Source: a virus
Taxonomy: Duplodnaviria; Heunggongvirae; Uroviricota; Caudoviricetes
DNA length: 36,849 nucleotides
Virus record (IMG/VR): IMGVR_UViG_3300028912_000018
Direction: 5' to 3' (one strand)
Part shown: positions 7,696-27,270 of the stretch, piece by piece
How positions within the stretch are numbered: the first letter of the stretch is position 1
How the letters are laid out: each line of letters starts with the position of its first letter
Notes under the pieces: model-generated
Seen by the model: the letters and a program-made list of their open reading frames with translations, nothing else
What the model was told of the DNA's origin: nothing
The model's database searches: none
Position numbers and translations under genes: made by a program

Positions 7696-10245
7696 TTATT
7701 TACCTAGCATGAACTGCGATGGTGGGATCAGAAAGTCGTTCCCCTGCTCACGCTCAACACGGCGCTGATAACGCTCAAGAGAGCCTGGGTCAAGGGCATC
7801 TTGTATCCGGTTCAATATTAAACCATTCATCGCCGTACGAAGCCAGAACACGTTGAGGAATGGCGTATTGTCAAGTGCCGTGCGATACCAGTCACCCAAA
7901 TCAGCATCCCCTCTCGTGGTCTGCTGGAGCAGCGTGATAATGCTGTCAGCGTTCGATGCTGCTGGCCCCATTAGCGACGTAACCGGCCCGGCCCCCATGC
8001 GGTTGACCTCACCAAACATGAAGTCACCCAAGATGCCAAGACCGCCCCCCTGAGATGCGGCTGCGAGAAACGTCTTGGCATCTGCCGGGCGTGGTGTTTG
8101 CCCTTTCAGCATGAGTTTTGACTGCATGGAGATATAACCAAACATAGTCGCCCAGACAAAGAGGTTTGCAGCACCAAGGAAAGCCCCCTTCCCGTTACGT
8201 AGCAGCGCATTCGTCAGCGATCCGGTTTTCGACTCACCAAGCCCAGCAGGAATATAACCACGCCCGAATACTTCGCGTCCTAGTACGTTCTGCATGAAGC
8301 TTGCAGTGAACGATTTGTACTGACCAGCGAATCGTATTGCTTCCCCAGCCACCGTTCCTGGCACCGTGCCCATCTTCATAAACGCCTGCGTGCGATCGCC
8401 AGGCTCTGACATGGCGATATTCAGACGGTCAAGGATGTAGCCGCGCAACTGCCCTTCCAATTGATCGCGTGCGTCAGCGATAGCGCGCTGCGTTGGTTTG
8501 ATCCCCTTACTCTCTACATAACCGGCAATCACTTCGTCAGGCACGCCGCGGATGCCGCTGGTCGTCATGAACTTACGACCTTCGCTATCGGCCATGTCCA
8601 TGTTGCGAAAAATTTCCCACTCACGTTCGCCAATACCGTGCAGATCCAGCACGCGTCGCAGGTCTTCCGGTAGCCGCGCATGAGACTGGTCAGCATTCTT
8701 TGCAAGCCAGTTGGTTATCATCATGGCGTTGCTGTTGCGACCGCTCTCGGTCCAGAAGTTCATGAGGTTGTACTTAAAGAAAAGCTGCTGCGCGCGACCA
8801 AGCTTTCCATTCAGCGTGTCATCACCAGATATGCGCCGGATGATTTCCTGCGTCATGGAGTCGGAATAAACTCCGATAGAGGAAAGGATCTCTTTCTGCT
8901 CCGCGCTGTTGTAACGCGTGAAGCGGCCTCTCATAGCACCAAGCAACGCCTGCATAAAATTCTGCCCTTGGTAGCGCATCTCGGTAGCGGCGATAGGCAC
9001 GTCGTTAAACGATGAGATTACCGCGCCACCAAGTTGGCTCATACGCAACCAGCCGCGTACAGCCGCCGACGCATTGGCCCAGCCTACGCTGCCAGGAATA
9101 TTTAGCGAGCCGTCAACCTGCGGCATTACGGTACGGTTAATGCGACGCACCTTCGTCATGTAGTCAGCCAACGCTGCCGGTCTTCCGGATTTGCTGATAT
9201 CTTCAGCAATGGCGTCCGTCAGGTACTTAAACATGTTCTGTGGGTTAGTGCCCAGTACGCGCATCATGCCCGTTGTGCGGGCAGCGCTGTTTAAGCCACC
9301 AAACAGCGCTTCTCGCAGGCTGCCGGTGCCGAATTGCTGGTTGTACTCGTGCCACGAGATACCATCTTTGAAGTGCAAAATTCGCTCTTGGCTGGCGCGT
9401 TTAGCTGCGTTCGCCGATCCCTTAAAGCCATTCATCCAATCGGGCTTTTCAGATGTAAGATGCACGCCGGAAGCCAGCCCGTTATAAATGTTACGCATGA
9501 ACTGCTCGCGGTCAGCCACGCCGTCAAAAGTGCGCTCATCAAGGCGCGGGAGAATAGCATTTCGCCATGCTTCATAACCTGCGGCGCGGATCTTCATGAT
9601 GTCGTGTGACTGGCGCACTATATAGCCCGGCTCTTTGCGTATCCATGCCCCGGCGCGGTTCTCATCAATGCGCGCAGTTTCCTGCCATTTCATGATGATT
9701 TGTGCAGCGCTTACGGATTGCTTTGTCATACCGTCAGTTGACTGCCCGCGCCCTATGCGCCACATTGCATCGGCAATTTCCCGGTCATTGCTGCCGCTGG
9801 CGATGAATTGCACCAGCCCGGCACGGTCAAAATCGTAGTTGATACCGGAATGATACTTGCCGCGCAGTTGCGCCACCTCCGAAGATACCGACCGGCGGGC
9901 GCCGGTACGCGCATCGTTGCGGCCAACCAGCATTGCTTCAAGCCCGATATCCGGGCGGTCTTTCCAGATAGTACGAAGCTCTCTAAGTCGTTGTGCGGCA
10001 ATACGGGCGTCGATTGCCTTATTGCGAGCCTCAATCTGTTTTGCCAGCATATCGGCATTGCTCAGTTCTTCCGCTGCGCGCATCGCGGCCTCTTCCAGAG
10101 ACAGCGCCTCATTGGTCGCCAGAATTCGCCTAGTGGTGTCGTTCATGTCACGCACCAGCGACTCCATCTCATCGGAAGAAAGCTCGCGACCAGCGGCAGC
10201 ATTTACACTGCGCTCGCACTGCGTCAAAAATTCGTTTGCTGCCAT
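7696..10245 (-). CDS. large internal virion (core/ejection) protein
   Basis: 849 aa; ATGA start-stop overlap with upstream gene; position in operon. Confidence 0.65.
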   Translation of the reverse strand: MAANEFLTQCERSVNAAAGRELSSDEMESLVRDMNDTTRRILATNEALSLEEAAMRAAEELSNADMLAKQIEARNKAIDARIAAQRLRELRTIWKDRPDIGLEAMLVGRNDARTGARRSVSSEVAQLRGKYHSGINYDFDRAGLVQFIASGSNDREIADAMWRIGRGQSTDGMTKQSVSAAQIIMKWQETARIDENRAGAWIRKEPGYIVRQSHDIMKIRAAGYEAWRNAILPRLDERTFDGVADREQFMRNIYNGLASGVHLTSEKPDWMNGFKGSANAAKRASQERILHFKDGISWHEYNQQFGTGSLREALFGGLNSAARTTGMMRVLGTNPQNMFKYLTDAIAEDISKSGRPAALADYMTKVRRINRTVMPQVDGSLNIPGSVGWANASAAVRGWLRMSQLGGAVISSFNDVPIAATEMRYQGQNFMQALLGAMRGRFTRYNSAEQKEILSSIGVYSDSMTQEIIRRISGDDTLNGKLGRAQQLFFKYNLMNFWTESGRNSNAMMITNWLAKNADQSHARLPEDLRRVLDLHGIGEREWEIFRNMDMADSEGRKFMTTSGIRGVPDEVIAGYVESKGIKPTQRAIADARDQLEGQLRGYILDRLNIAMSEPGDRTQAFMKMGTVPGTVAGEAIRFAGQYKSFTASFMQNVLGREVFGRGYIPAGLGESKTGSLTNALLRNGKGAFLGAANLFVWATMFGYISMQSKLMLKGQTPRPADAKTFLAAASQGGGLGILGDFMFGEVNRMGAGPVTSLMGPAASNADSIITLLQQTTRGDADLGDWYRTALDNTPFLNVFWLRTAMNGLILNRIQDALDPGSLERYQRRVEREQGNDFLIPPSQFMLGK

Positions 10246-11942
10246 CACATCCCCCGGTTAATCATACAGGCGGCAAATGCCCGGAAAGCGTTGCTCATGC
10301 TATTGTCGCTGGCGTCGGCACGAATATCATTGAGTTTCTGGCGCAACGTGGTCGCAAGATCAGGGTTATCGACAGCGATATCGTCAAGCAGGGCGTTACT
10401 CAGGTTGAGCTCGTTATCAAGGTCTGCAGCGGCAGCGGTAATTTCATGATCTGCCTTTTGCGTTTCTTGATAAACCCGATCGGCTGTTTCGCTTGCTGGG
10501 CGAGCCGTTTCATCAACCTGCCGTGCCGGGTTCTGTATGCGATGGATGGCGCGTTCACGCAGTGCTGGTTTGTGCAGTTCATAGAAGGGCTCAACATCTG
10601 GGCTACGTCCTTCCATCATGTGTGCCAGCGCAGCGCGATACGCCTGCTGGTTCACGTTCCAGTCAGCATCCCTGATGGCGCTTGCGGCAGTGCGAACTGC
10701 GCCAGCGACCGGCGACATCTGCATGCCGTCCAGGATCTGCTGCGCACGCTCGGAAATGGTGACTTTCAGGTCGTCGGGGATCTCGCCGCGGGAAATCTGA
10801 GACTGGCGCCAGCGCGCCTGCTCTGCTGTCGCGTTCTGCTCCAGCGATGTGTTGATCTCCTGATTGCGTGCAGCGATGGCGTCTTTCTCGGCCTGAATCT
10901 CTTTCAGTGCCCTAGAGCGCGCATCCTTAAACTTCATCCGCTGCCCCTGATACTTTTTGGTGCGCTGCTGCAGCGTCGCATCAAGCGAGTCAGCATGACG
11001 TTGATTAGCCGCAAGCTCGGCACGCAGGTCGGCAACGTTACCGATCTGCCCGCTCTGTAACTCCTGCTGGCGCGCCATATAGTCAGGAACCACGTCGTCA
11101 TAAGCTCGGCTGTATGCGTAGCTCTCCGCTTCACTGGAAATGGCCGCCGCCAGATCTGCGTTAGCGCCAACCTCAGGGATATTCACGCCCGCCGGAATGT
11201 TGTCAGGCGTTATCACTGGGGTTGGCTGCGCATCGCCAGAAAACGCCGGGGACTCTCCCGTTGCAGCATCGGGAACGCGACGCGGTCGCACGATATCGGC
11301 GATAAGGCCGCCGCCGGCATGCATTAGACCGCCAGCCATCGTGTTAAAAAAAGTACTTTCCAACGCGTTGCTATAGGTGAAGTCGTCACCTTCCGCCGCC
11401 GCTGCCAGCCCGGTAAGCGGCACGGTCACCAACGCCTGCGCTGCCCCCATGCGTGCACCAGCAACAAATCGCTCGCCAAATCGGCCAAGCACAGAAGCCG
11501 CCTTTGCTTCTCCAGCGAACGGAACCAGCGCCAGCGCCACGTTACCAGGATCTGCCATTGAACCAGCTAGGCTGGCTGCGAAATTAAGCGGCGTGGCTAC
11601 CCACCCGCTCGGTGCCGACATCGCGATCTGCTGGCGTGCCAGAGAATCTTTGCGTTCGGCAATAACATGATCGAGAAAAGCCTGCGTAACGCCAGAATCT
11701 GGCACGTTTATGCTCTTTACGCCGTACTGCTTCAGGAGCTCATCCGCTTCCTGCTTACTGATAACTGTAGAGTTTGGGTCATTCGCCAGCGAGTCGGCCT
11801 GCGCAAAGCGGTAGCCGGACATGACCGGCCCCTCTTCAAATCCCTGCTTAAGGGAAGAAAGCAGCGATTCGCCAAGCCCTGCTGGCGCGTTGCCAATTGG
11901 CTGGTTAATTCCCTGTCCCGGATCATCTGTGTAAATTGGCAT
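10245..11942 (-). CDS. internal virion (core/ejection) protein
   Basis: 565 aa; coiled-coil-rich; tightly coupled to neighbours. Confidence 0.6.
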   Translation of the reverse strand: MPIYTDDPGQGINQPIGNAPAGLGESLLSSLKQGFEEGPVMSGYRFAQADSLANDPNSTVISKQEADELLKQYGVKSINVPDSGVTQAFLDHVIAERKDSLARQQIAMSAPSGWVATPLNFAASLAGSMADPGNVALALVPFAGEAKAASVLGRFGERFVAGARMGAAQALVTVPLTGLAAAAEGDDFTYSNALESTFFNTMAGGLMHAGGGLIADIVRPRRVPDAATGESPAFSGDAQPTPVITPDNIPAGVNIPEVGANADLAAAISSEAESYAYSRAYDDVVPDYMARQQELQSGQIGNVADLRAELAANQRHADSLDATLQQRTKKYQGQRMKFKDARSRALKEIQAEKDAIAARNQEINTSLEQNATAEQARWRQSQISRGEIPDDLKVTISERAQQILDGMQMSPVAGAVRTAASAIRDADWNVNQQAYRAALAHMMEGRSPDVEPFYELHKPALRERAIHRIQNPARQVDETARPASETADRVYQETQKADHEITAAAADLDNELNLSNALLDDIAVDNPDLATTLRQKLNDIRADASDNSMSNAFRAFAACMINRGM

Positions 11943-11943
11943 G

Positions 11944-14565
11944 TTATCGTCCTGATTGCTGGCCGTTCTGGAAAATGTTAATCAGGTTGTCGCGCTGACT
12001 TTCTGCGCTGTATTCCTTAGACTGTCCGGGAGTATATTTCACCGGAGTATCAATGAACTTGGTAATGCTGTTCCATACTGATCGGTTGGTTGTTCCCAGT
12101 TTCGCCAGATCGTTGAACGGCACCGTAATCGGGTTGCCGTCGGCACCGTTGACGATCAGCCCGTTGAGCATCAGGGTAAGTCCTGTTTCGTCGCTGTTGG
12201 TAACCCACTGCGCATTATCACGAATGCGGGAGATACTCTGCTCACGGTTGACCTCATCAGGTAGCCTTGGGTCACCAATAAGCGGCATAATCTGATCTGC
12301 TGACAGGTTTTTCAGATACGCATTGGCACCATCGTTAACGTCACGAATATCTATCCCTGCACGCTTAGGTAGCCGCCAAGTGCCATTGGTCTGGTACTGC
12401 TCGCCGAGGATGTCCTGATACGCCTGTTTTGCTGCATCAGACGCCGACATTCCGCGCTGCATGTTGATGTAAGTAAGTCGTTTTCCCTGCTCGTTGAAGT
12501 TATTCCACACGGCAGTGCCACCAGGCTGAACAACCATCGTGCCAGCAAAATCTTTCGATTGGTCATTCCATGACGAGTCGGCGCTATCCGCGTCGGTTTT
12601 CTCAAGACTGCCGCGTAAGTCAGCAGTTTTAACGCTACGGTTTTGCCAGAGCGCATTTGCCGCGCGCGGGTTCTCGGTAGCCATGACAACCTGCAACGCA
12701 GGATAAGCGCTCTTCTGAACCTGCTGCATCACCTGATCCGAGTATTTGCCGAACGACTGCGCCACCGACTGAATGGCCTTTACGCTAGATTCCTGCGTGT
12801 TGTCAATACGCTGCAGTACGTCGTTGACCATGGACTCCGGTAAAACTTTTTTGCTCATTATCCCCAGGCGGTCTTTTTCAGACTGTATGCGGGAAACTAG
12901 GTATTCACCAGATGAAGGGTCATTCAGGTACTGCTGGAATGCAGCCTGCACAACCGGAGAGTTTTGTTGCAGCCATGCCCCCGGATCCGCTTCCCGCGCC
13001 TTCAGTACCTGCCCAAGCTTGACCTTTGCCGATGCATAAAGCTCTGCTTTGTATTTAAAGTCAGGGTCGTTTTCCTGCGGTGCCATTGCCTGCACGGCGG
13101 CGGTACCCTGCTGGACGTTGCCCTGCATAATGGTCTGATAAACAGGTTGTAGCGTCATTGCCTGCTGGTATTGCTGGAAGGTTTTTTCCATCTGCAGGCG
13201 CTCGGCAGGCGCTGCCTGAAGCGGCATAACGGCGGCCCATTCGTGCGCTGAAATAGGCGTCACCTGCTTACCGGCCTCAATTTTGGATAGGTCGTCCTGC
13301 ATTCGACTCTGTAGCGCAACGCGACCGGCTGAAGCCTGCATGTCGTACATGCCAGCAACCTTGCTCATCATCTGCGACTTTTTGTCCGGACTCATGGCGT
13401 TCCAGAATGGCTGTGCGATGAGGTTTTCCATCGTCGCAGATCCAGGAATAGCTCCAGCACTGCCAGTTACTTTTGCCACATAATTGCGCGTCTCGTCGTA
13501 TGGGATAGCTGCGGCAAACTGGGCGTTACTGACTTCGCCTGTGCGCGGATCGCCAATCTGTTTAATCCAGCCGTCAACCTTTCCTGGGCCAGCGTTATAG
13601 GCAGCTACTGCCAGAACCGGGTTATTGTCGTATTTCTTCATCTGCGCGCCGAAATAAGCTTGCCCCAAGCGGGCATTATAGCGCGGGTCATTCAACCATT
13701 TATCTCGGTCCCACGGCACGCCAGCAAGGCGGGCAGCTTCGGGGCCAGTATCTTCCGTCACCTGCGCTACGCCAACAGCGCCTTTTGGCGACACCAGAGG
13801 TGTTCCGTCCTTTCCGTACTGATTTCCGCCACTCTCCTGCCAGATTATTGCAGAGAATAACTGCGCCTCACTCGGTGTATCGGTTACCTCAATCTTGCCG
13901 TTCGGACCCATCATCTGTTGATACATCGGCACATACCACGCCTCCGCCGCACCGTTCGCGGCATTCTCGCGCCACGAAACCCAGTTCTGTTCGATCTCTT
14001 CCTGACTCTGGCCGTGGGCTTCGCCGTAAGCGATGATGCTATGATATGCCTTCAATCCTGCCTGGTTTGCCATTGTCGGGTTACGGAACTGCATCGATAG
14101 GTTTTTTAGTGTCGCATCCTGCATATCCGCCTCATACTGGCGAACCTGTCCTATTTCGTACCTCCCGGCCTGCGTAGTGAACTGAATGCGCTGCTGCTGC
14201 GCCTGCTGCATGAAAGCATTACGAGCCTGTTCATCCGGCAGCGACATAGCCAGTTGTTCGACCTGAGCATCAAACTGCTGCGTATACTCATGGCCTTTTC
14301 CAATAGCATTTTTCCCTTTCAGGTTAAGCAATCCTGTTTCAGGATTATTCAGCAGATCGCTGCTTATCTGACTGAGGTTAAGAGATGCCTCCTGAGCCAG
14401 AGCGATATTGGCACGCTGTTTTGCCTGCCCCAAAACATCAATTGCCTCTGTCCCTGCCCGAACAAAAGCATCACCAATACCTGGCTGAGAAAACGTCTGC
14501 AAGCCTGCTGACTGAACTCCACGACTCTCAACCTGACGTCCGGATACTGTTGGTACGACTGGCAT
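11944..14565 (-). CDS. internal virion protein with lytic transglycosylase (SLT) domain
   Basis: SLT motifs IIWQESGGNQ and AYNAGPGKV; start moved to ATG 14565 (GGAGG SD, TAATG overlap with upstream stop). Confidence 0.75.
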   Translation of the reverse strand: MPVVPTVSGRQVESRGVQSAGLQTFSQPGIGDAFVRAGTEAIDVLGQAKQRANIALAQEASLNLSQISSDLLNNPETGLLNLKGKNAIGKGHEYTQQFDAQVEQLAMSLPDEQARNAFMQQAQQQRIQFTTQAGRYEIGQVRQYEADMQDATLKNLSMQFRNPTMANQAGLKAYHSIIAYGEAHGQSQEEIEQNWVSWRENAANGAAEAWYVPMYQQMMGPNGKIEVTDTPSEAQLFSAIIWQESGGNQYGKDGTPLVSPKGAVGVAQVTEDTGPEAARLAGVPWDRDKWLNDPRYNARLGQAYFGAQMKKYDNNPVLAVAAYNAGPGKVDGWIKQIGDPRTGEVSNAQFAAAIPYDETRNYVAKVTGSAGAIPGSATMENLIAQPFWNAMSPDKKSQMMSKVAGMYDMQASAGRVALQSRMQDDLSKIEAGKQVTPISAHEWAAVMPLQAAPAERLQMEKTFQQYQQAMTLQPVYQTIMQGNVQQGTAAVQAMAPQENDPDFKYKAELYASAKVKLGQVLKAREADPGAWLQQNSPVVQAAFQQYLNDPSSGEYLVSRIQSEKDRLGIMSKKVLPESMVNDVLQRIDNTQESSVKAIQSVAQSFGKYSDQVMQQVQKSAYPALQVVMATENPRAANALWQNRSVKTADLRGSLEKTDADSADSSWNDQSKDFAGTMVVQPGGTAVWNNFNEQGKRLTYINMQRGMSASDAAKQAYQDILGEQYQTNGTWRLPKRAGIDIRDVNDGANAYLKNLSADQIMPLIGDPRLPDEVNREQSISRIRDNAQWVTNSDETGLTLMLNGLIVNGADGNPITVPFNDLAKLGTTNRSVWNSITKFIDTPVKYTPGQSKEYSAESQRDNLINIFQNGQQSGR

Positions 14566-15110
14566 TATAATCCTCCGGGTAATCTGGTTCCTGCTGCTGC
14601 CCCGATTGGCGCAGGAGTGCTTTGAGTAAACGGACTCCACGTCCCACCAAACATCTGGTACGCACCGTATGCCTTCAGAGGCGCAGTGAGCAATGTTGTT
14701 GCTGCTCCCACATTCCCCTGTTTACGGGCTGAACTGGCTTCTGCTTTATAGTTGGCAGCCTGAACCTGATAACCGTAAGCCTCGCGTTGCGCGTTATTCA
14801 CCGTCGTCAGAGAATCAAGAGCGCCAAACTGGGCAGTGTCGCCAAATATATCCAGCGCGTTACCTGTAGATAAATCAGCGCCGGTAGCCCCCATTGTCGC
14901 CGCCTGTGTACCAAGCCGCTGTCGGGTCTCTCTGCGCCGTTGCTCAGCTTCAGCGTTACCTCTGTTTATTGCATCATTTGCCTGAGCTGTGGCTATATCT
15001 GCGTTCGCTTCTGCAACCTTCGAGGCATACTTTCCCTGTTGGTACTGGGTGTATGCCTGAATGCCACTCATGGCGAGCATTGCGCCACCAGCAATAACCG
15101 GATCGCACAT
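14565..15110 (-). CDS. small internal virion protein (T7 gp14-like by position)
   Basis: 181 aa; hydrophobic N-terminal segment; Ala/Gln-rich. Confidence 0.5.
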   Translation of the reverse strand: MCDPVIAGGAMLAMSGIQAYTQYQQGKYASKVAEANADIATAQANDAINRGNAEAEQRRRETRQRLGTQAATMGATGADLSTGNALDIFGDTAQFGALDSLTTVNNAQREAYGYQVQAANYKAEASSARKQGNVGAATTLLTAPLKAYGAYQMFGGTWSPFTQSTPAPIGAAAGTRLPGGL

Positions 15111-15574
15111 TATTTTCTCTCCATGTGAAATCTGTGGAAATTAAGACCAAGAGCACCATAAGGCGCGGCTTCTTCAAGCCTGAATCCAAGCCAGTGCAGC
15201 CATGCTTTGGCAACATGGTTTCGCTCGTCGACGTAGTTTTCCAGGCGCGGATAAACTGCCAGCATCTGCTGCAATACAGGGCGGCAGTGGCGAAGAAATG
15301 TCTTCTGATATTTTTCAATACGGCTGGTTCCTACCAGCCAGGGCGTACCATTGCCACCGATCATTGACGCCGGAGATACGCCAAACATGGTTACCAGTTC
15401 TCCGTTCGCAAATCCTGACCAGGCCATAGTCGCAGTACGCAGACCAACACGCAGCGCATCTTCGGTAGTCATCAGTGATACCGCATACAGTTCGTCAATA
15501 TCAGCCTGACGAACATCCGGCAAAATCATCTGAAGATGCTCTTCGGTTGCGGGAATAATTTGAACATCGATCAT
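15110..15574 (-). CDS. virion-associated hypothetical protein
   Basis: 154 aa; overlapping stop/start with neighbours. Confidence 0.5.
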   Translation of the reverse strand: MIDVQIIPATEEHLQMILPDVRQADIDELYAVSLMTTEDALRVGLRTATMAWSGFANGELVTMFGVSPASMIGGNGTPWLVGTSRIEKYQKTFLRHCRPVLQQMLAVYPRLENYVDERNHVAKAWLHWLGFRLEEAAPYGALGLNFHRFHMERK

Positions 15575-18979: not shown

Positions 18980-19023
18980 TCCTGCAATAAAGGGGCCGAA
19001 GCCCCTTGTCTGATTCGCGAGGC

Positions 19024-19362: not shown

Positions 19363-19363
19363 C

Positions 19364-19852: not shown

Positions 19853-20839
19853 TTAGACCACGCGGGCTTCTGTTTCCAGAAGCGCATCAGTTTCACGGAT
19901 TGGTACACCACGGAATGAAGTCCACCACTCGCCTTCTGTCTCTTTTACGCTGATAGCCAGAGATGTTTTCTCCAGAGACTGCAGATCAAGAGCCTGGCCT
20001 ACAGTGCGGTTCATGTAGAACACCGGGCGGCCCATGCCACGGTTTGGAATGCGATGCAGTGCTTTAACCATCAACTTCGCAATATTTGCGGCAGAGGAAG
20101 GTTCTGAAAGATTGCTGACATCGATGTTTGCAATGCGAACAACATAACGCCAGTCACGCAGAGCAAGTCCGTTATCCCATTTATAATGGGTGCGATAGCC
20201 TTCGTACTTGCCACCATTAGCATCTTCCAGTGTCACCTGGCCTTTATCTTCCATCTGGATGCCAGCCTTCTGCCCTTTCGGGAAGATGCCATGCACGGTG
20301 TTTTCGCCCCACACCACTAACCAGATTGAGGTGTTATCTGTACCCGTGCCACCAGCATCAATGATGTTCTGAGCATTACCCGCAGACAGGCTGGAATAGC
20401 GGGAGGACAGTCCCATAAACTGCTGAGGGTTAACGCTGGAATCACCATAAAACAGCGTCTGCGCCATCTGCTGATTCATCGCTTCAATAAATGCGCGGTC
20501 TTCAGACAGGCGGAATTCGGCGGTATTGCCGTTCAGATCAGCCAGTGACTTATCGACTTCCGCATAGGTTTCCAGCATGCCAACGGAATCGGTTACCTGC
20601 ACTGTGGTTGATTTGCTTGGCTGTACGCCATAGTTCAGCAAACGCCAGGTAGCTGAAGGTAAACCAGAACGAATGGTGGTTCGGTGTCCGGTAGGAAGGT
20701 TCCCTTCGACAAAAGGCATATCCTGAAGGATCGGGTTAGTTTGACCGAGAAGCTCGATAATCTTATCGACTTTCCCGTTTGGATCGACGCGCTTACCCCA
20801 GTCAGCCAGCGTCAGCGCAGTTAAGCCTTTAACAGCCAT
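19853..20839 (-). CDS. major capsid protein
   Basis: about 328 aa; follows scaffold gene; second ATG chosen (GAGG SD at correct spacing). Confidence 0.7.
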   Translation of the reverse strand: MAVKGLTALTLADWGKRVDPNGKVDKIIELLGQTNPILQDMPFVEGNLPTGHRTTIRSGLPSATWRLLNYGVQPSKSTTVQVTDSVGMLETYAEVDKSLADLNGNTAEFRLSEDRAFIEAMNQQMAQTLFYGDSSVNPQQFMGLSSRYSSLSAGNAQNIIDAGGTGTDNTSIWLVVWGENTVHGIFPKGQKAGIQMEDKGQVTLEDANGGKYEGYRTHYKWDNGLALRDWRYVVRIANIDVSNLSEPSSAANIAKLMVKALHRIPNRGMGRPVFYMNRTVGQALDLQSLEKTSLAISVKETEGEWWTSFRGVPIRETDALLETEARVV

Positions 20840-20853
20840 TGTCATTTCCTCTC

Positions 20854-21549
20854 TTATTTGCCATAGAGCACTTCGGCCGCACTACGCTGGCCTTCATTAC
20901 CACCGGTGACCATGCCATCTTCAGACATCGCCTTTCCGATTTTCACGAACGTTTTGACCAGATCAGGGTGATTACCCAGCCCGGTGGTGTTCAGATATTC
21001 TTTGAGTTCAGGTGTCCCGAACTGGTCAAGCGCACGCTGTGCGGCGCTAAGGTTAGAAATCAACTTGTCGCCACCGATTTCTTTGTCAGCTTTTACATCA
21101 GCAGCCCACTGCTCGGTTGTTTTCTGCCAGGCTTCTGCCTGGCGCTGCTGCACACCTGCCAGAATCTTCGGATAAGCATCAACCAGCTTTTGCGCTTGCT
21201 CGTTGGTCAGGTTTAGTTCTCGCGCCACCGGCTCGAATTCCTTCAACGCTTCTGTATCCAGCTCTACGCCTTCGGCAGCCTGAAACTCGTACTTCTCAGG
21301 CGCACCCTCTGGTTTATCGCCGCCCTTTTTTTCATCCTGCTTATCGTTTTCAGGCTTTTTGTCATCAGCAGGTTTATCGCCATCAGCAACAGGTTGTGGC
21401 TTATCACCTTCCTGTTGTGATGGATCACCAACTGGAGCAGGGTTATCACCTGCAGGCGCTGACGGTTCTGACGCAGCAGGAGCTGCTCCACCATCGACTG
21501 GTTGCTCATTGCAAAGACGGCGATACAGCAAACGCTCAAATAAATTCAT
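20854..21549 (-). CDS. scaffolding protein
   Basis: acidic, low-complexity, Lys/Asp/Glu-rich; between portal and coat; AGGAG SD. Confidence 0.6.
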   Translation of the reverse strand: MNLFERLLYRRLCNEQPVDGGAAPAASEPSAPAGDNPAPVGDPSQQEGDKPQPVADGDKPADDKKPENDKQDEKKGGDKPEGAPEKYEFQAAEGVELDTEALKEFEPVARELNLTNEQAQKLVDAYPKILAGVQQRQAEAWQKTTEQWAADVKADKEIGGDKLISNLSAAQRALDQFGTPELKEYLNTTGLGNHPDLVKTFVKIGKAMSEDGMVTGGNEGQRSAAEVLYGK

Positions 21550-21551
21550 GA

Positions 21552-21848
21552 TCACTCCTGTTCACTGGCCTCTTTGGCCATCTTCAAATACTGTTCAGGG
21601 CAATGCGCCATAACGCGCTGAAACAGTTCCAGCGCCAGATTGCGTTGCCCCTCATTAAATGCCATTGCCATAGCGTCCATCGGTGAGATAGCGGAAAACA
21701 CACGGCCTTTCTCCAGCACCGACCAGACAACGCGACGCCCCTGTTCACTGCTCATGACAAAGCGAATGTCATCAATTTCACGCTGTGCCATGTCACGTTG
21801 CTTACGGGCGCTTTCTTCTTTCAGTTGATCATCTTCGTAATCTGTCAT
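21552..21848 (-). CDS. hypothetical head-assembly protein
   Basis: 98 aa; ATGA overlaps on both sides. Confidence 0.5.
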   Translation of the reverse strand: MTDYEDDQLKEESARKQRDMAQREIDDIRFVMSSEQGRRVVWSVLEKGRVFSAISPMDAMAMAFNEGQRNLALELFQRVMAHCPEQYLKMAKEASEQE

Positions 21849-23524
21849 TGTGATTGCCCACCCTGACCACTAACTGCATTCGCCATAGCTGACAAAACAC
21901 TCGGATCCGAAGTTTTAGCTTCGCTTAGCGTCTTGGCACCCTGTGCCGCCGCCATCCCCATCGCCATCATTTGTTGCTGCTGTTGTTGCTGTGCCCGTTG
22001 CTGGCGAGCCTGCTCAACCTGTTCCTGCGGAACAATGACGGTTGGAGACACTCCGGACATATCAGCGAATGCATCGATCGCCTGATCAACGTTGAGTTTG
22101 TCGAGAGCTTCTGGTTTCGCTTGCGCAAGTTGACCAATGAAGTTAACCGTGGACGCCAGACTGGACAGGCCGATAGACTTCTGCGCCTGAGCCATGACGG
22201 AAATGTATTCGACCTTCAGGGGCATACCTTCCATCACGTCTGGCGGTGGCGGCAGCATGTTTTTACGCACCATCATCGAGAAAGAGCGGTCAATGAGAGG
22301 ATTAAGACATTCGTCGTTCAGACGCTCCAGAACCGGCCCCAACATCAGAAGTTTTTCTTCTTTCATTTCGATCACCGCTTCAACAGGCATCGAGCGGGTA
22401 TTGATGTTCTGCAACATCATGAACAGATCGACAAAGTAGGCGCTGTTAATGATTTGACGAGTGTCCTGAATGTCTGCCACCAAATCTGCTGTACTGGGGT
22501 TAACCAGATAAGCAGGCCTGAAACCATCCTGACCAGTAATCTGATCGATATACGTGATGTCGCCAGGAAGAAGGGAGGCACGCTGATTCTTGAGGGAAGT
22601 CGGAGCAACCATCGGCGGATTGGTGGCTTTATCAATCAACTGCGACTTGCGCTTCTGGAGAAGCTGCAATGCCTTAACAGGTCCAAGCGCCAGCATACCC
22701 GGGCATGATGATCCATAAACATCTTCGCCGTTAACTTCCCAGCGCGGAGCCATAATTGGAAACTCATCGAATCCGGACTCACGCAACAACTTGTCGTTAT
22801 CGCCACCAACCTCGTAATAAACCGATTTGAATGGCTTGTTCTTGCTATCCAGCTTCGATGTATCGCGGTCAATGTTCGGGTAAACCGAATGCATCACTTC
22901 AATCCACTTCTCGTAGGTGCCGCTTTCCCACATGCTTTTTACGGATTCGCTGACGTTATTTAGCCCGAACTCCTGAACAAGCTGACGAACAGTCATAGAG
23001 AACTTGCGAAAACAGGTGTCCACACTGCCACGAGGTGAGTTAGCCAGGTAGTAACTGCCTATCGGGAATGGCATTGTGCGAATGATGTCCTCGTCATCCT
23101 CCAGCACTGCCATTGCACCAGTGCTGTATGTGCCGAGGCTTCCGTATAACTGCGGCAGCGACTGATAGAGATTCGACTTATTGAACATATCGTTCATGCG
23201 GTTCTGCACCGCCTCAAGCCACAACTTAACAGGGCCATAATCCATCATTTCAGGATCTGGCGTAGCCAGGCGAAACCACGGACGCGCGGGGCTTGTGATG
23301 CCTGACATCATGCCGCTGGCGAGAGTGCGCGCCGCCATAGTCCCGGTCGAATCAATAATGCGTGTATTGCGTCGATCGTTACGGTTGACCTCAGAAGTCA
23401 GAAAGCGGGAACCACGCGGGTTGATGTAATCACTCAACTCGCGCCAGTGCGGCTCGAACGACTGACGCTCGCTTTCAAGTTGTGCGAACTGTTTGTTCAA
23501 TCGCTCTTTAGTTGTTTCCGCCAT
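21845..23524 (-). CDS. portal protein
   Basis: 559 aa; first large gene after terminase; Gln/Ala-rich C-terminal tail; GGAG SD. Confidence 0.75.
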   Translation of the reverse strand: MAETTKERLNKQFAQLESERQSFEPHWRELSDYINPRGSRFLTSEVNRNDRRNTRIIDSTGTMAARTLASGMMSGITSPARPWFRLATPDPEMMDYGPVKLWLEAVQNRMNDMFNKSNLYQSLPQLYGSLGTYSTGAMAVLEDDEDIIRTMPFPIGSYYLANSPRGSVDTCFRKFSMTVRQLVQEFGLNNVSESVKSMWESGTYEKWIEVMHSVYPNIDRDTSKLDSKNKPFKSVYYEVGGDNDKLLRESGFDEFPIMAPRWEVNGEDVYGSSCPGMLALGPVKALQLLQKRKSQLIDKATNPPMVAPTSLKNQRASLLPGDITYIDQITGQDGFRPAYLVNPSTADLVADIQDTRQIINSAYFVDLFMMLQNINTRSMPVEAVIEMKEEKLLMLGPVLERLNDECLNPLIDRSFSMMVRKNMLPPPPDVMEGMPLKVEYISVMAQAQKSIGLSSLASTVNFIGQLAQAKPEALDKLNVDQAIDAFADMSGVSPTVIVPQEQVEQARQQRAQQQQQQQMMAMGMAAAQGAKTLSEAKTSDPSVLSAMANAVSGQGGQSQ

Positions 23525-24172: not shown

Positions 24173-24249
24173 GTGGCATTAGCTCAGTCGGACAGAGCAA
24201 CCGCCTTCTAAGCGGTTGGTCGCAGGTTCGAATCCTGCATGCCACGCCA
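24173..24249 (+). tRNA. tRNA-Arg (anticodon UCU), with encoded CCA
   Basis: cloverleaf by hand: acceptor GTGGCAT/ATGCCAC, D GCTC/GAGC, anticodon stem ACCGC/GCGGT, loop CTTCTAA, T arm GCAGG-TTCGAAT-CCTGC. Confidence 0.85.
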
Positions 24250-24840: not shown

Positions 24841-24844
24841 AAAC

Positions 24845-24871
24845 AGCCAGCCGATGAGCTGGCTTTGTTTT
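24845..24871 (+). terminator. intrinsic terminator
   Basis: AGCCAGC-CGATGA-GCTGGCT then TTGTTTT. Confidence 0.6.
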
Positions 24872-24914
24872 ATCCTCACCAGAGGATATCTCCGTCATTA
24901 TCCCCGCTAACGGA

Positions 24915-26390
24915 TTAAGCATAGGGATCATAATCTGTAATGGCCTTGCCTTGCTGGTTCTGCTGCCCGGGAATTCGCAGACGCTTAGACACAGGGAACG
25001 CAAACGTCAGCAGTAGCGCATCGCCTTTACCCGGCGAACGCCCAAGCCGCTCCTTGATATCTTCCTTCGGTTCGATAACGATTTTACCGTCCACTCGAAC
25101 TTTGTACTCTGCCGCCGACAGGTCGTCCGCTGTTTCCTGGTCATCCAGCATGCCGCCCAGCCTCAGCCATGTCTTGCATGAGTTGAACATCTCCCCACGC
25201 TTGTTGAGCATCTGCGGGTCAGTAGACGCGCCACCGAACGGAACAAGTTGCCATGTGCGCCCCCAACCGTCACCGATTGACTTCAGCCCGGTACCGTAAC
25301 CGAAGTCGATGAACACCGCGTCAGCCTGATACTGGTCTTCAAAGTCAGCGATACGCTTCGCCATAATCAGATCGTCGGTAGTCTTGTTGCCAGTCCACAG
25401 CACCTTACTGTGTAGCCCCTGCCGCAGGTATATCACCGCGTCATCAACGCCTGAATATGCCGGGTCAACACCGATTATCACCGGAGCATGTGCCACCTGC
25501 GCAGCGGTTACCACCCGTTTCATTGCCTCGTCAGTAAGACCGGTAGGGATAAACTGCAATTCAGATGCATCAGGGAATATGCCACGCACACGGATTTTAA
25601 CGAAGTCGCTATCTTCCCCGTAGTCATCAACCCATTTCTGCAACTGCTGTTTGTTGGTGCCTTCCACCGTCCTGCTGTCAATCTGCGCAGTTTTCCAGCG
25701 GTGTTTGTATTTGCGGAAACATTCACGGAAACGCCCGGTGTTACGTGTAGGGTTTCCGAAAGCCACCCAGATAATCTCAGTGTCTTCGTCCGTTAGCGCA
25801 CCCTCGGCAACTTCCCACACCAGATCCGCAATGTTCGACGCTTCATCAAATACCACGATGATGCGTTTACGCTCGTTGTGTAGTCCGGCGAATGCCTCAG
25901 TGTTGTGCTCAGACCAGGGGATTGCGTCAGCTCGCCACCGCTTGTCGTGCCCAGGATCATTGCTGTACATCGCAGTAGCGGTACAGGTAAACCAGTCTTT
26001 CGTGATAGCAAGGTTCGACCACTTGATAATTTCCGGCCAGGTCTTCGTTCGTAGCTGGTTGTCGGTGTTGGCGGTCACCACGACCTTACAATCCTCGCAA
26101 GTGGACATGCCCCAGTTGATCAGCATTGAGATGAATGCGGATTTACCAATACCGTGACCAGAAGCGCGTGCCAGCATAAGCGGCTGATAGCGCGTCTCTG
26201 GATTCTGCAGGTGATCACGTATCTCTCGGAACGCATCAGCCTGCCACTGACGTGGACCGGTGGCATGTGCCAGTTCAGTACCCTCTTCCCCCCACGGGAA
26301 CGCATAGAGGGCATAGCCAAGCGGATCGTGAGTGAACCCTGCAATATCCTCGATCAACTGCTCTTCAGGAGATAACGCTGTATCTGTCAC
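24915..26390 (-). CDS. terminase large subunit
   Basis: 491 aa; P-loop-like GHGIGKS; acidic motifs; GTGA overlap with terS stop. Confidence 0.8.
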   Translation of the reverse strand: MTDTALSPEEQLIEDIAGFTHDPLGYALYAFPWGEEGTELAHATGPRQWQADAFREIRDHLQNPETRYQPLMLARASGHGIGKSAFISMLINWGMSTCEDCKVVVTANTDNQLRTKTWPEIIKWSNLAITKDWFTCTATAMYSNDPGHDKRWRADAIPWSEHNTEAFAGLHNERKRIIVVFDEASNIADLVWEVAEGALTDEDTEIIWVAFGNPTRNTGRFRECFRKYKHRWKTAQIDSRTVEGTNKQQLQKWVDDYGEDSDFVKIRVRGIFPDASELQFIPTGLTDEAMKRVVTAAQVAHAPVIIGVDPAYSGVDDAVIYLRQGLHSKVLWTGNKTTDDLIMAKRIADFEDQYQADAVFIDFGYGTGLKSIGDGWGRTWQLVPFGGASTDPQMLNKRGEMFNSCKTWLRLGGMLDDQETADDLSAAEYKVRVDGKIVIEPKEDIKERLGRSPGKGDALLLTFAFPVSKRLRIPGQQNQQGKAITDYDPYA

Positions 26391-26983
26391 TGATTACCAT
26401 CCTGACGTTCTTTGAGTCGCTTCCTGGCTGCTGCTATGCGATCAGCAATTGTCACATTCACATTAACATCCAGACGTTCTTTGAACGCGTTGACATCAAC
26501 ATGCTTACCAATCAGCTCAAGGTTCTTCACCTTGTCAGGCCATTTAATTTTTTTGAGGATTGTCTCTATCGAATCCTCGTTCATGTTCATGATGGTCGAT
26601 GACAGATCAAAGCCACTAAGCGTAGTGCGCCAGATTTTCGGCCACTCGCGGATTGGCTTAAGGCTCCCATCGTCGTTGAGGATGTCGATCACGTCCATCT
26701 GGTCGATCTCCACCAGGCGCATGAGAACGTAATCAGCACTGACGCGCATTCGTTTGTTGCGCTCCTCCATCAACTCGGCAATCCGTTTCTGAATGCGTTC
26801 ATCGCGCATCATGACACTGGCTTTAACTGCCGCTGTATTTGGGGAGAATCCTGCATTAATCGCTGCCTGAGTCTGGTTTTCAGGCGTTTTGATGTATGAC
26901 TGGCAATAAGCCTCCTGCATTGCTGTTAGTGGCTTAAATTGCGTTGATTTGCGTTTATAGGTTTTAGGTTCAGCAGGCATCAT
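26387..26983 (-). CDS. terminase small subunit
   Basis: start placed at ATG-ATG 26983/26980; the 26-aa extension to TTG 27061 is translated operator sequence. Confidence 0.65.
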   Translation of the reverse strand: MMPAEPKTYKRKSTQFKPLTAMQEAYCQSYIKTPENQTQAAINAGFSPNTAAVKASVMMRDERIQKRIAELMEERNKRMRVSADYVLMRLVEIDQMDVIDILNDDGSLKPIREWPKIWRTTLSGFDLSSTIMNMNEDSIETILKKIKWPDKVKNLELIGKHVDVNAFKERLDVNVNVTIADRIAAARKRLKERQDGNQ

Positions 26984-27020
26984 AACCACCGTGGTAATAG
27001 TTACCGTTGTGGTAATAGTA
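26982..27020 (-). promoter_or_regulatory. tandem operator-like sites plus -10 TACTAT before terS
   Basis: GTTACC-GTTGT-GGTAAT (27000-27016) and ATAACC-ACCGT-GGTAAT (26982-26998); minus-strand TACTAT at 27015-27020. Confidence 0.4.
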
Positions 27021-27057
27021 CCATGCAAAATAAAGCCGCCATAGTTGGCGGCAGTAT

Positions 27058-27270
27058 TCAAAGTCCATCAAATTCATCGTAAAAACTCTCGTCAAGATAC
27101 CCTTCCCATTTACCGCGAATGAAAATTACATCCTCGCCGCAAGGGTGCTGACTGTCGATAACTATATCCCTCCTGACGCAACCATACTTATGCATGAGAA
27201 ATTTAACCTCTTTCGGAAAATTTGCTGAGTTATCTCTCATATCTTCAAGGTCGTAGCGTATTTTTGGCAT
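27058..27270 (-). CDS. hypothetical protein (70 aa)
   Basis: start at internal ATG with GAAGGTG SD. Confidence 0.4.
   Translation of the reverse strand: MPKIRYDLEDMRDNSANFPKEVKFLMHKYGCVRRDIVIDSQHPCGEDVIFIRGKWEGYLDESFYDEFDGL

What the first reader, a model, noticed from the sequence alone, without database searches (positions are those of the whole stretch)
7696..27061. K1 receptor cassette carried on a T7/epsilon15-like structural backbone rather than a P22-like one
The virion operon encodes a ~559-aa portal, a ~330-aa coat, gp11/gp12-like tail tube proteins and three large internal core proteins, one with an SLT lytic transglycosylase domain. That resembles T7-like or epsilon15-like podoviruses. 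The described neuO-carrying prophage CUS-3 is P22-like, where portal and coat are much larger. If correct, the tailspike/neuO/att module has been swapped onto a different morphogenetic chassis.
Basis: inference. Interest (0 to 1): 0.5.

Follow-up and report, generated by a model that had tools for sequence, protein, structure and literature searches.

The report
K1 endosialidase on epsilon15-type prophage
This is the virion gene set of a phiV10/epsilon15-type temperate phage that targets the E. coli K1 capsule with a borrowed endosialidase tailspike, which is an already known combination; only its link to the CUS-3 neuO gene is unusual, and that link may be an assembly artefact.

Summary
Positions 7696-27061 (minus strand) encode terminase, a 559-aa portal, a 330-aa coat, adaptor and nozzle tail proteins and large internal proteins, one with an SLT domain.

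Thirteen proteins from terS to the gp14-like protein are 97-100% identical to phiV10 and 36-94% to epsilon15. None resembles CUS-3, P22 or T7 by BLAST. The chassis is therefore Uetakevirus-type, not P22-like.

Only tailspike residues ~193/233-1040 (endosialidase plus chaperone) are CUS-3-like. Residues 1-165 are the uetakevirus anchor.

This design is already known: phage ZX5 (2022) and prophages in 71 of 5,426 complete E. coli genomes, including APEC O1 and IAI39. There the tailspike is followed by a lysis cassette and the phage's own integrase, at yfgI.

The window instead has CUS-3 neuO (12 heptads, "on") and a 145-aa integrase fragment. It has no lysis genes, no intact integrase and no att. 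No complete genome or IMG/VR contig has this join. It is the wrong-partner junction between two direct 2.4-kb repeats that co-resident prophages share. It is either an assembly misjoin or a rare recombinant.

The core cassette is a separate non-phiV10 allele.

The parts
1..438 (+). int': C-terminal 145 aa of the CUS-3/IntS-type tyrosine integrase. The window begins at in-frame codon 241 of the 385-aa gene.
   Evidence: Pfam Phage_integrase E 2e-29. Aligns to CUS-3 912-1349. The same 145-aa product is a recurrent gene call where int is split by an IS or a frameshift.
678..1412 (-). neuO, polysialate O-acetyltransferase, with the poly-psi heptad VNTR at 1324-1409 (12 copies, in frame, 'on').
   Evidence: Hexapep domains. 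TRF finds 12.3 copies of GAGTCTT. 99.7% identical to CUS-3. The identical 244-aa product is on record, in CUS-3 contexts only. The multiple-of-three rule and the neuO+12 allele are in PMC3046976.
1566..4688 (-). Chimeric endosialidase tailspike, 1040 aa. aa 1-165 are the uetakevirus tail anchor. From aa ~193 (DNA-level from ~233) to 1040 is CUS-3-type EndoN plus the C-terminal chaperone. The last ~15 codons (1566-1611) are CUS-3-type rather than ZX5-type.
   Evidence: Pfam End_N_terminal, End_beta_propel, End_beta_barrel, End_tail_spike and Peptidase_S74. Identity table. Breakpoints.
1612..3990 (.). 2.4-kb segment shared at >99.5% by CUS-3-type and uetake-type tailspike genes. The neuO/int' piece is joined to the uetake backbone somewhere inside it.
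   Evidence: Identical to CUS-3-type L030 over 1410-3908, and to uetake-type L086 over 1612-7200 except at site 2265. The two copies within APEC O1 are 99.6% identical.
4761..6842 (+). Accessory genes between the tailspike and the core genes, including the AntA antirepressor at 5459-6115. Uetake-prophage type.
   Evidence: Pfam AntA. 99% identical to phiv142-3 and 99.97% to L086.
7133..7693 (-). 186-aa protein (phrog_11983), the last gene of the variant core cassette.
   Evidence: PHROG E 1e-130. No phiV10 or epsilon15 homologue.
7696..10245 (-). 849-aa internal/ejection protein (phrog_684). Non-phiV10 allele.
   Evidence: PHROG E 2e-271. 23% identical to phiV10 gp20, 49% to Stenotrophomonas BUCT708, 45% to Pseudomonas Ab31. 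The identical product occurs in 631 blocks, always in yfgI uetake prophages among the places shown.
10245..11942 (-). 565-aa internal protein (phrog_3003). Non-phiV10 allele.
   Evidence: PHROG E 2e-282, with a weak hit to 'internal virion protein with endolysin domain'. No phiV10, epsilon15 or PDB hit.
11944..14565 (-). 873-aa internal protein with an SLT lytic transglycosylase domain. aa 1-~139 are phiV10-identical and the rest is the variant allele.
   Evidence: Pfam SLT. Slt70-type structures. In-gene breakpoint.
14565..15110 (-). 181-aa internal virion protein, T7 gp14 family / epsilon15 gp14-like.
   Evidence: Pfam T7_gp14 E 2.5e-7. 100% identical to phiV10 p17.
15110..15574 (-). 154-aa internal virion protein (epsilon15 gp13-like).
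   Evidence: phrog_308. 99% identical to phiV10 and 63% to epsilon15.
15574..18045 (-). 823-aa tail nozzle (gp12-like).
   Evidence: PDB 8ck1_A E 3e-217. 99% identical to phiV10 and 88% to epsilon15 gp12.
18045..18653 (-). 202-aa tail adaptor (gp11-like).
   Evidence: PDB 8ck1_E E 6e-27. 99% identical to phiV10 and 84% to epsilon15 gp11.
18650..19801 (-). Capsid decoration set: Gp10-like staple (18650-18979), gp9-like protein (19024-19362) and Bbp16-like cement (19364-19801).
   Evidence: Pfam Gp10-like E 1e-51 and Bbp16 E 3e-47. 97-98% identical to phiV10.
19853..20845 (-). 330-aa major capsid protein, epsilon15 GP7 / BPP-1 family.
   Evidence: Pfam GP7 E 2e-149. PDB 3j4u E 1e-128 and 3j40 E 2e-85. 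100% identical to phiV10 and 43% to epsilon15.
20854..21848 (-). 233-aa protease/scaffold-position protein (20854-21555) and 98-aa Bbp19-like protein (21552-21848).
   Evidence: 97-98% identical to phiV10 p09 and p08. Pfam Phage_Bbp19.
21845..23524 (-). 559-aa portal (T7-type head-to-tail connector family).
   Evidence: Pfam Head-tail_con E 3e-187. PDB 8ck0. 99% identical to phiV10.
24173..24249 (+). Phage-borne tRNA-Arg(TCT).
   Evidence: ARAGORN. A tRNA-Arg is annotated at the same place in phiV10-like typing phages.
24915..27061 (-). Terminase large (24915-26390) and small (26387-27061) subunits.
   Evidence: 100% identical to phiV10. Pfam Terminase_2 for terS.

Best explanation
Positions 7696-27061 are the late (virion) operon of a phiV10-type Uetakevirus prophage.

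Inferred mode of action:
- The capsid is built from a GP7/BPP-1-type coat with staple and cement proteins, on a T7-type portal.
- The short tail consists of an adaptor and a nozzle.
- A set of internal proteins is ejected to bridge the cell envelope, and the SLT domain cuts peptidoglycan.
- K1 specificity comes from a chimeric tailspike (1566-4688). A ~165-aa uetakevirus anchor plugs into this tail. It carries the endosialidase and self-cleaving chaperone that are almost identical to those of CUS-3.

This phage type is already known. It normally reads tailspike, two holins, endolysin, spanin, own integrase, and it sits at yfgI.

In the window that 3.7-kb tail end is missing. In its place, 1.6 kb of CUS-3 DNA (neuO in the 'on' phase and a C-terminal integrase fragment) is attached through the 2.4-kb endosialidase segment that both prophages share.

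I judge this attachment to be a wrong-partner connection between two prophages that often co-reside in K1 strains. It was more likely made by the assembler than by the cell. It is not a transplanted working tailspike/neuO/att unit.

Shown: the identity of every module, the breakpoints, and the absence of lysis genes, integrase and att. Inferred: the virion mechanism (by homology) and the origin of the join.
For: Chassis:
- 98.2% DNA identity to phiV10 over 14148-27061.
- 97-100% protein identity for 13 proteins, with nothing against P22, CUS-3 or T7.
- Pfam GP7, Gp10-like, Bbp16 and Head-tail_con.
- Matches to solved nozzle, adaptor, portal and coat structures.

Known kind:
- ZX5 is a Uetakevirus with a 1039-aa endosialidase tail protein.
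- 71 of 5,426 complete genomes carry this tailspike, including APEC O1 and IAI39.
- The canonical context is yfgI, then the lysis cassette, then the tailspike.

Join:
- The window matches a canonical yfgI prophage (L086) with one SNP over 18.6 kb from position 1612.
- It matches canonical CUS-3 at 100% over 1-1600 (H196) and over 1410-3908 (L030).
- In APEC O1 and VTB96815v the two tailspike genes are direct repeats 169-173 kb apart. They are 99.6% identical.
- The window is exactly the neuO-side to uetake-side path through that repeat.
- That path is absent from 5,426 complete genomes and from 69 IMG/VR loci.
- It is also absent from 10 neuO contexts and 8 core-protein contexts.
- Both wrong-partner polarities occur in short-read metagenome contigs: L126 at 3.6x coverage, and L139.
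- The window has no holin, endolysin, spanin, full integrase or att.
Against: - Short-read assemblers usually break at such repeats rather than join across them. Several IMG/VR contigs (L060, L069-L077) end at the repeat edges. A 36.8-kb contig that crosses the repeat therefore argues for a single-copy, real structure.
- Polymorphisms inside the shared segment are shuffled between the two prophage families, so real recombination does happen there.
- L126 is an independent contig with the same polarity of join but a different (neuO-less) CUS-3 partner.
- I could not see the source contig beyond either window end. The exact tailspike product is not on record anywhere.
Confidence: 0.55

Rival explanations
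1. The join is real. Homologous recombination within the shared 2.4-kb endosialidase segment linked CUS-3 and a uetake-type genome. One route is Campbell-type insertion of a circular uetake genome into the resident CUS-3 tailspike gene at argW. That would give int-neuO-hybrid tailspike-uetake genome-uetake int-lysis-second hybrid tailspike-rest of CUS-3. The window would be the left part of such a tandem or defective prophage.
For: - 2.4 kb of >99.5% identity, and both phages encode recombinases: RecE/RecT-like genes at 33377-35308 in the window and erf in CUS-3.
- Alleles are shuffled between the two families.
- Co-residence is frequent.
- There is an independent same-polarity contig, L126, and a reciprocal contig, L139.
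- The window is one long contig that crosses the repeat.
Against: - The join is never seen in 5,426 complete genomes, although 71 carry the uetake-type tailspike and 148 carry int-neuO.
- A simple crossover between the chromosomal copies would delete about 130 kb of chromosome between argW and yfgI. From my own knowledge of E. coli K-12, that interval contains essential genes such as gltX, ligA, zipA and dapA.
- The only other examples are low-coverage or short metagenome contigs.
- Both halves show zero divergence from canonical parents.
Confidence: 0.33
2. A functional hybrid K1 phage. neuO has been captured as a receptor-modifying moron in the slot directly downstream of the tailspike of a uetakevirus, analogous to oac in phiV10. 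Lysis and integration functions would lie outside the window.
For: - phiV10 carries an O-acetyltransferase, and epsilon15 carries O-antigen polymerase genes, immediately downstream of the tailspike.
- neuO is intact and in the 'on' phase.
- NeuO protects against K1 phage (PMC9659370).
Against: - In every uetakevirus examined, the lysis cassette and integrase follow the tailspike or moron slot. Here they are replaced by a truncated foreign integrase.
- The right end of the window stops exactly where the uetake integrase would start. Within the window there is therefore no place for a lysis cassette.
- No relative with this layout was found in any collection.
Confidence: 0.07
3. The region is a CUS-3/P22-like prophage after all, with divergent structural genes.
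For: Only the left 3,990 bases and a 1.2-kb Ea22/DUF551 patch (27626-28861) match CUS-3.
Against: - No structural protein matches CUS-3 or P22.
- The coat is of the GP7 family and the portal of the T7-type connector family.
- 98% DNA identity to phiV10.
Confidence: 0.01

Closest known systems
Escherichia phage vB_EcoP_ZX5 (Uetakevirus, MW722083; PMC9782041) and the equivalent yfgI prophages of APEC O1, IAI39, 20Y000092 and GCA_040011475.1
   Same: - Same chassis and the same chimeric endosialidase tailspike (1039 vs 1040 aa; 98-99.97% DNA identity over 1598-7132 and beyond).
- Same early region (about 98% identity over 62% of it).
-.
   Different: - These elements have holin-holin-endolysin-DUF2514-integrase downstream of the tailspike. 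The window has CUS-3 neuO and an integrase fragment instead.
- ZX5 carries the phiV10-type core cassette, whereas the window carries the variant one.
Escherichia phage phiV10 (Uetakevirus phiV10, O157-specific)
   Same: - terS through the gp14-like protein are 97-100% identical.
- Same gene order and the same tRNA-Arg position.
- A receptor-modifying acetyltransferase sits next to the tailspike.
-.
   Different: - The tailspike receptor-binding part is O157-specific in phiV10 and an endosialidase here. Only the anchor is shared, at 67% identity.
- Three and a half core genes are replaced.
- phiV10 has oac, whereas the window has neuO; the two differ in family, orientation and origin.
Salmonella phage epsilon15
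   Same: - Same architecture: gp4 portal, gp7 coat, gp10 staple, gp11/gp12 tail, gp13-gp17 internal proteins, gp20 tailspike anchor.
- 36-94% protein identity.
-.
   Different: - Much more distant than phiV10. The coat is only 43% identical, and the window's coat is closer to BPP-1.
- Different receptor and different conversion genes.
Prophage CUS-3 (P22-like, Lederbergvirus)
   Same: - int C-terminus, neuO and endosialidase residues ~233-1040 are 99.5-99.7% identical.
- Same K1 receptor logic: an endosialidase to enter and NeuO to modify the receptor.
-.
   Different: - The whole virion is different: P22-type portal (732 aa), coat (417 aa), scaffold, gp7/20/16 ejection proteins, and a Head_binding anchor on the tailspike.
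- The lysis cassette lies upstream of the terminase genes.
-.
Lytic K1 phages K1F (T7-like) and K1E/K1-5 (SP6-like). From my own knowledge and Stummeyer et al. 2006, as cited.
   Same: Same principle: one endosialidase catalytic module is grafted onto lineage-specific N-terminal anchors or adaptors.
   Different: They are lytic Autographiviridae with their own RNA polymerase. The window has no T7-like proteins detectable by BLAST.

Membership tests
Uetakevirus (epsilon15/phiV10-like temperate podophages) | GP7-type major capsid protein with gp10-type staple protein | tested here: met
   Pfam GP7 E 2e-149 and Gp10-like E 1e-51. PDB 3j40 and 3j4u.
Uetakevirus (epsilon15/phiV10-like temperate podophages) | Colinear late operon: terS-terL-portal-protease-coat-decoration-gp11-gp12-internal proteins-tailspike | tested here: met
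   Gene order and 15 matches the phiV10 and epsilon15 annotations. 97-100% protein identity to phiV10.
Uetakevirus (epsilon15/phiV10-like temperate podophages) | Genus-level nucleotide similarity over the whole genome. The ICTV rule of thumb of about 70% is from my own knowledge. | tested here: inconclusive
   About 98% identity, but only over roughly 55-65% of each third of the window against phiV10 or ZX5. The core cassette and the left end do not align. The window is not a complete genome.
Uetakevirus (epsilon15/phiV10-like temperate podophages) | Lysis cassette and P4-type integrase/attP downstream of the tailspike | tested here: not met
   No hit to phiV10 or ZX5 lysis, int or attP sequences. 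No lysis or full integrase Pfam domains.
CUS-3 / P22-like (Lederbergvirus) | P22-type portal, coat, scaffold and gp7/gp20/gp16 ejection proteins | tested here: not met
   tblastn of all window structural proteins against CUS-3 and P22 gave nothing at E<=1e-3 and nothing meaningful at E<=10.
CUS-3 / P22-like (Lederbergvirus) | Tailspike with the P22 Head_binding N-terminal domain | tested here: not met
   Pfam finds no Head_binding domain in the window's tailspike, whereas all CUS-3-type tailspikes have it. aa 1-165 match the phiV10 and epsilon15 anchors.
CUS-3 / P22-like (Lederbergvirus) | int-neuO-endosialidase left end at argW | tested here: inconclusive
   The sequence 1-3990 is 99.5-99.7% identical to CUS-3. 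However, int is only a 145-aa fragment, no att core is present, and the flank is not visible.
Autographiviridae (T7-like) | Single-subunit RNA polymerase and T7-type coat, tail and core proteins | tested here: not met
   No tblastn hit of the tested virion proteins to T7. Only remote family links exist: Head-tail_con and T7_gp14. The early region is lambdoid/uetake-type.
Phage endosialidase tailspikes (EndoN) | End_N_terminal, beta-propeller with inserted beta-barrel, stalk, and C-terminal intramolecular chaperone | tested here: met
   All five Pfam domains, with E from 6e-233 to 2e-10. 97% identical to CUS-3 EndoN.
NeuO polysialate O-acetyltransferase | LbetaH acetyltransferase with a 5' AAGACTC heptad VNTR whose copy number sets the reading frame | tested here: met
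   Hexapep domain. 12 heptads immediately after the start codon, with an intact 244-aa ORF. The rule is stated in PMC3046976. Enzyme activity was not tested.

The most novel reading that the evidence does not exclude
The neuO-to-uetake join is genuine. Under this reading, a homologous crossover in the shared endosialidase gene placed the phase-variable capsule acetyltransferase neuO, so far tied exclusively to P22-like CUS-3, on an epsilon15-type prophage. The conserved receptor-binding gene would then act as a recombination bridge that moves receptor-modifying cargo between unrelated podophage lineages living in the same K1 strain, or that fuses the two lineages.
Probability: 0.3. Interest if true: 0.5.

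Novelty: new member of a known kind. Interest (0 to 1): 0.25.

Why it matters
The headline of the finding, K1 receptor recognition on an epsilon15-type chassis, is correct but not new. It adds one more example of tailspike modularity, in which a lineage-specific anchor carries a swappable enzymatic head.

Two points have practical value.

1. K1 ExPEC/APEC strains often carry two unrelated prophages that share 2.4 kb of nearly identical endosialidase sequence as direct repeats about 170 kb apart. This is a trap for short-read assembly and prophage typing, and a potential substrate for real rearrangements. Any claim of neuO outside CUS-3 needs read-level proof.

2. About one in six E. coli uetake-type prophages carries an alternative ejection-protein cassette that no isolated phage represents. 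This may be of interest to people studying podophage genome delivery.

Tried and rejected
1. Placing the breakpoint at 3990, then at about 1611, using only RS218 CUS-3 as the reference. This was rejected after comparison with about 115 loci. Alleles in the shared segment are shuffled between the two families, so the crossover can only be placed within 1612-3908.

2. Finding the source contig by exact protein look-up.
- The 1040-aa tailspike is not on record.
- The 850-aa GTG-start version of the core protein is not on record either.
- The 849-aa, NeuO and int' products are on record, but only in canonical contexts.

3. Private-SNP tags at 1632 and 1938. Both alleles turned out to be common, or present in both families.

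4. Circular-contig hypothesis. The window has no terminal overlap. It starts at an internal ATG of int and ends at a stop codon, so it is cut at gene boundaries and its ends carry no information.

5. A second crossover that would make a clean double recombinant. The only other CUS-3 homology (27626-28861) is inverted relative to the tailspike, so it cannot give a colinear replacement.

6. The scan of GTDB species-representative genomes found no relative of the tailspike.

7. T7 or P22 relatedness by BLAST: none.

Full report
OBSERVATION

The interval 7696-27061 is a single minus-strand operon. It contains:
- terS (26387-27061; Pfam Terminase_2) and terL (24915-26390).
- A 559-aa portal (Pfam Head-tail_con, E 3e-187).
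- A 233-aa protein in the protease/scaffold position and a 98-aa Bbp19-like protein.
- A 330-aa coat (Pfam GP7, E 2e-149).
- A Bbp16-like cement protein and a Gp10-like staple.
- A 202-aa adaptor and an 823-aa nozzle. These are homologous to the solved 'connector' and 'tail nozzle' chains of 8ck1.
- Two small internal proteins, one in the T7_gp14 family.
- Three large internal proteins of 873, 565 and 849 aa. The first carries an SLT lytic transglycosylase domain.

All ten proteins tested, from 7133 to 19362, have full-length PHROG matches. CUS-3's portal and coat are 732 and 417 aa.

WHAT THE CHASSIS IS

DNA from 14148 to 27061 is 98.2% identical to phiV10 and about 76% identical to epsilon15. 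In a local tblastn against the complete genomes of phiV10, epsilon15, P22, T7 and CUS-3:
- Thirteen proteins from terS to the gp14-like protein are 97-100% identical to phiV10 and 36-94% to epsilon15.
- None gives any hit to P22, T7 or CUS-3.
- Relaxing the threshold to E<=10 against CUS-3 adds nothing meaningful.

The early region (27062-36849) is also phiV10/ZX5-like. It encodes DnaT/P-type replication proteins, a repressor, RecE/RecT-like recombination proteins and an MT-A70 methylase. The backbone is therefore Uetakevirus-type. 'T7-like' applies only at remote family level.

THE TAILSPIKE IS A CHIMERA, AND THE DESIGN IS KNOWN

The 1040-aa tailspike (1566-4688) has the full endosialidase domain set plus the C-terminal chaperone.
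- Residues 1-165 are 67-71% identical to the N-terminal anchors of the phiV10 and epsilon15 tailspikes.
- Residues 193-1040 are 97% identical to CUS-3 EndoN. DNA-level identity with CUS-3 runs from 1 to 3990.
- The same anchor occurs on other receptor-binding domains in related prophages.

The same chimeric tailspike (1039 aa) is found in several places:
- In phage vB_EcoP_ZX5, a classified Uetakevirus. Its authors described the three-part tail protein in 2022 (PMC9782041).
- In induced-phage contigs of the Phi05 series.
- In 71 of 5,426 complete E. coli genomes, including APEC O1, IAI39 and SF-468.

In all of these the order is tailspike, two holins, GH19 endolysin, DUF2514 spanin-like protein, (attP), P4-type integrase. 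As a prophage the element sits next to yfgI.

WHAT IS DIFFERENT IN THE WINDOW

Downstream of the tailspike the window has CUS-3 DNA instead:
- neuO (678-1412) with 12 heptads. This is the natural 'on' allele neuO+12 (PMC3046976).
- The C-terminal 145 codons of the CUS-3 integrase (1-438).

The window starts exactly at an internal in-frame ATG of that gene. It ends exactly at the stop codon of the last early gene, which is the position where ZX5 has its integrase. The window is therefore cut at gene boundaries. It contains no holin, endolysin, spanin, full integrase, CUS-3 att core or uetake attP. As it stands, it cannot be a working 'tailspike/neuO/att' module on a new chassis.

WHERE THE TWO PARTS ARE JOINED

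CUS-3-type and uetake-type tailspike genes share window positions 1612-3990 at more than 99.5% identity.
- With RS218 CUS-3 as the only reference, the switch seemed to lie at about 1611.
- Against about 115 further loci, the best CUS-3-type relative (L030) is identical over 1410-3908.
- The best uetake-type relative (L086, GCA_040011475.1) is identical over 1612-7200 except at site 2265. Over 1598-20245 (18.6 kb) it is 99.97% identical.
- Positions 1-1600 are 100% identical to a canonical CUS-3 left end (H196).

Both halves are therefore undiverged copies of canonical elements, joined somewhere inside the shared segment. Polymorphisms in this segment are shuffled between the two families, which shows that exchange has occurred there in the past.

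GEOMETRY

In APEC O1 the layout is:
- argW, intS(+), acetyltransferase(-), CUS-3 tailspike(-) at 2.5727 Mb.
- yfgI, lysis(-), uetake tailspike(-) at 2.7415 Mb.

VTB96815v has the same layout, with the copies 173 kb apart. The two genes are thus direct repeats, 99.6% identical within one genome. Co-residence is common.

The window equals the path 'left flank of copy 1 to right flank of copy 2'. As a chromosomal crossover, this would delete the rest of CUS-3 plus about 130 kb of chromosome. From my own knowledge, that interval contains essential genes (gltX, ligA, zipA, dapA). A simple deletion is therefore not viable. The remaining options are a Campbell-type insertion of a circular uetake genome into the CUS-3 tailspike, some other rearrangement, or an assembler taking the wrong exit from a collapsed repeat.

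HOW OFTEN THE JOIN IS SEEN

The diagnostic query 1100-5100 can be covered fully only by a true hybrid.
- The best coverage in 5,426 complete genomes is 88%, which is the uetake type.
- No record covered 1-24900 starting from position 1.
- Among 69 IMG/VR loci the two classes are mutually exclusive, and several contigs end at the repeat edges.
- All 10 contexts of the identical NeuO protein are CUS-3.
- All 8 contexts of the identical 849-aa core protein are canonical yfgI prophages.
- The GTDB species-representative scan found no relative of the tailspike.

The gut-metagenome scan found two exceptions among 46 loci:
- L126 (6,984 bp, 3.6x coverage) has the uetake anchor, the endosialidase, a CUS-3-type 3' end and a neuO-less CUS-3 remnant, followed by host genes.
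- L139 (13.6 kb) is the reciprocal: CUS-3 backbone, endosialidase, uetake lysis cassette.

Wrong-partner junctions of both polarities appear only in short-read metagenome assemblies and never in closed genomes. This is what misassembly predicts, although rare real recombinants are not excluded.

The 145-aa int' product is a recurrent gene call where the CUS-3 int is split by IS3 or IS110 elements or by frameshifts. In 190 of 246 index blocks the longest contig that carries it is under 5 kb. This fits strains in which this small segment lies between an IS repeat and the endosialidase repeat.

VERDICT ON THE JOIN

I put about 55% on an assembly misjoin. I put about 33% on a real but defective recombinant or tandem prophage, and about 7% on a functional hybrid whose lysis and integration genes lie outside the window.

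The last option has a precedent in design. phiV10 carries oac, and epsilon15 carries O-antigen polymerase genes, directly downstream of the tailspike. NeuO protects K1 cells from K1 phages (PMC9659370). In those phages, however, the lysis cassette and integrase still follow.

A SECOND MOSAIC LAYER INSIDE THE FINDING'S COORDINATES

Positions 7133-14147 comprise p186, the 849-aa and 565-aa proteins, and the SLT protein from about residue 140 onward.
- This stretch has no DNA match in 50,697 phage records, even with blastn.
- The SLT protein is almost identical to phiV10 gp18 for its first ~139 residues and then diverges abruptly.
- The 849-aa protein is 23% identical to phiV10 gp20. The 565-aa and 186-aa proteins have no phiV10 or epsilon15 match.
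- The closest phage relatives are Stenotrophomonas BUCT708 (49% and 35%) and Pseudomonas Ab31 (45%).
- GC content is 0.537, against 0.512 for the adjacent phiV10-like structural genes.
- The cassette is present in 61 of 5,426 complete E. coli genomes, against 317 with the phiV10-type cassette.
- The 565-aa and 849-aa proteins have no solved relatives.

This is an established minority allele of the ejection-protein set. No isolated phage represents it.

NOVELTY AND SCORE

The core claim, K1 recognition on an epsilon15-type chassis, is correct and already known, so the window is a new member of a known kind. The neuO linkage would be modestly interesting if real, but it currently lacks support. 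The variant core cassette is a useful side note. Interest: 0.25.

Noticed in passing
window 7133-14147: The ejection/core cassette (p186, 849 aa, 565 aa, and the SLT protein from about aa 140) is a non-phiV10 allele. It has no DNA match in any deposited phage. Its closest relatives are Stenotrophomonas and Pseudomonas podophages at 35-49% identity, and its GC content is raised. It occurs in 61 of 5,426 complete E. coli genomes, against 317 for the phiV10-type cassette. The right breakpoint lies inside the SLT gene.
   Followed up: partly
window 1324-1409: The neuO poly-psi VNTR has 12 heptads, a multiple of three. The gene is therefore in the 'on' phase, and the 244-aa product is identical to a naturally occurring NeuO+12 allele.
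   Followed up: yes
window 1-438: The integrase is only the C-terminal 145 aa, starting at an internal ATG. The same product is called in 246 index blocks where the CUS-3 int is split by IS3 or IS110 elements or by frameshifts. In most of these blocks it lies on very short contigs.
   Followed up: partly
window 27626-28861: The Ead/Ea22 and DUF551 genes are 97-99.5% identical to the right end of CUS-3 (38295-39919), but inverted relative to the tailspike. This is a second homology patch between the two prophage families and could mediate inversions in strains that carry both.
   Followed up: no
window 24173-24249: A phage-borne tRNA-Arg(TCT) lies on the plus strand between terL and the portal gene, antisense to the late operon. 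Related phiV10-like typing phages carry one at the same place.
   Followed up: no
L139 (OLNK01001912.1) 1-13580 and L126 (ERZ812616 NODE-5006) 1-6984: These two gut-metagenome contigs carry wrong-partner junctions across the shared endosialidase segment. L139 joins the CUS-3 backbone to the uetake lysis cassette. L126 joins the uetake anchor to a neuO-less CUS-3 remnant that is followed by host genes (a periplasmic binding protein and a response regulator).
   Followed up: partly
window 19853-20845: The coat protein, which is identical to that of phiV10, is closer to the Bordetella phage BPP-1 capsid protein (3j4u, E 1e-128) than to epsilon15 gp7 (3j40, E 2e-85; 43% identity). The head genes of phiV10-type phages are therefore themselves mosaic relative to epsilon15.
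   Followed up: no
APEC O1 NC_008563.1 2,572,697-2,575,642 and 2,741,541-2,744,660: Many K1 ExPEC/APEC genomes carry two endosialidase tailspike genes as direct repeats about 170 kb apart. One is in CUS-3 at argW and the other in a uetake-type prophage at yfgI. In APEC O1 they are 99.6% identical over at least 2.27 kb. This is a hazard for short-read assembly and prophage typing.
   Followed up: yes
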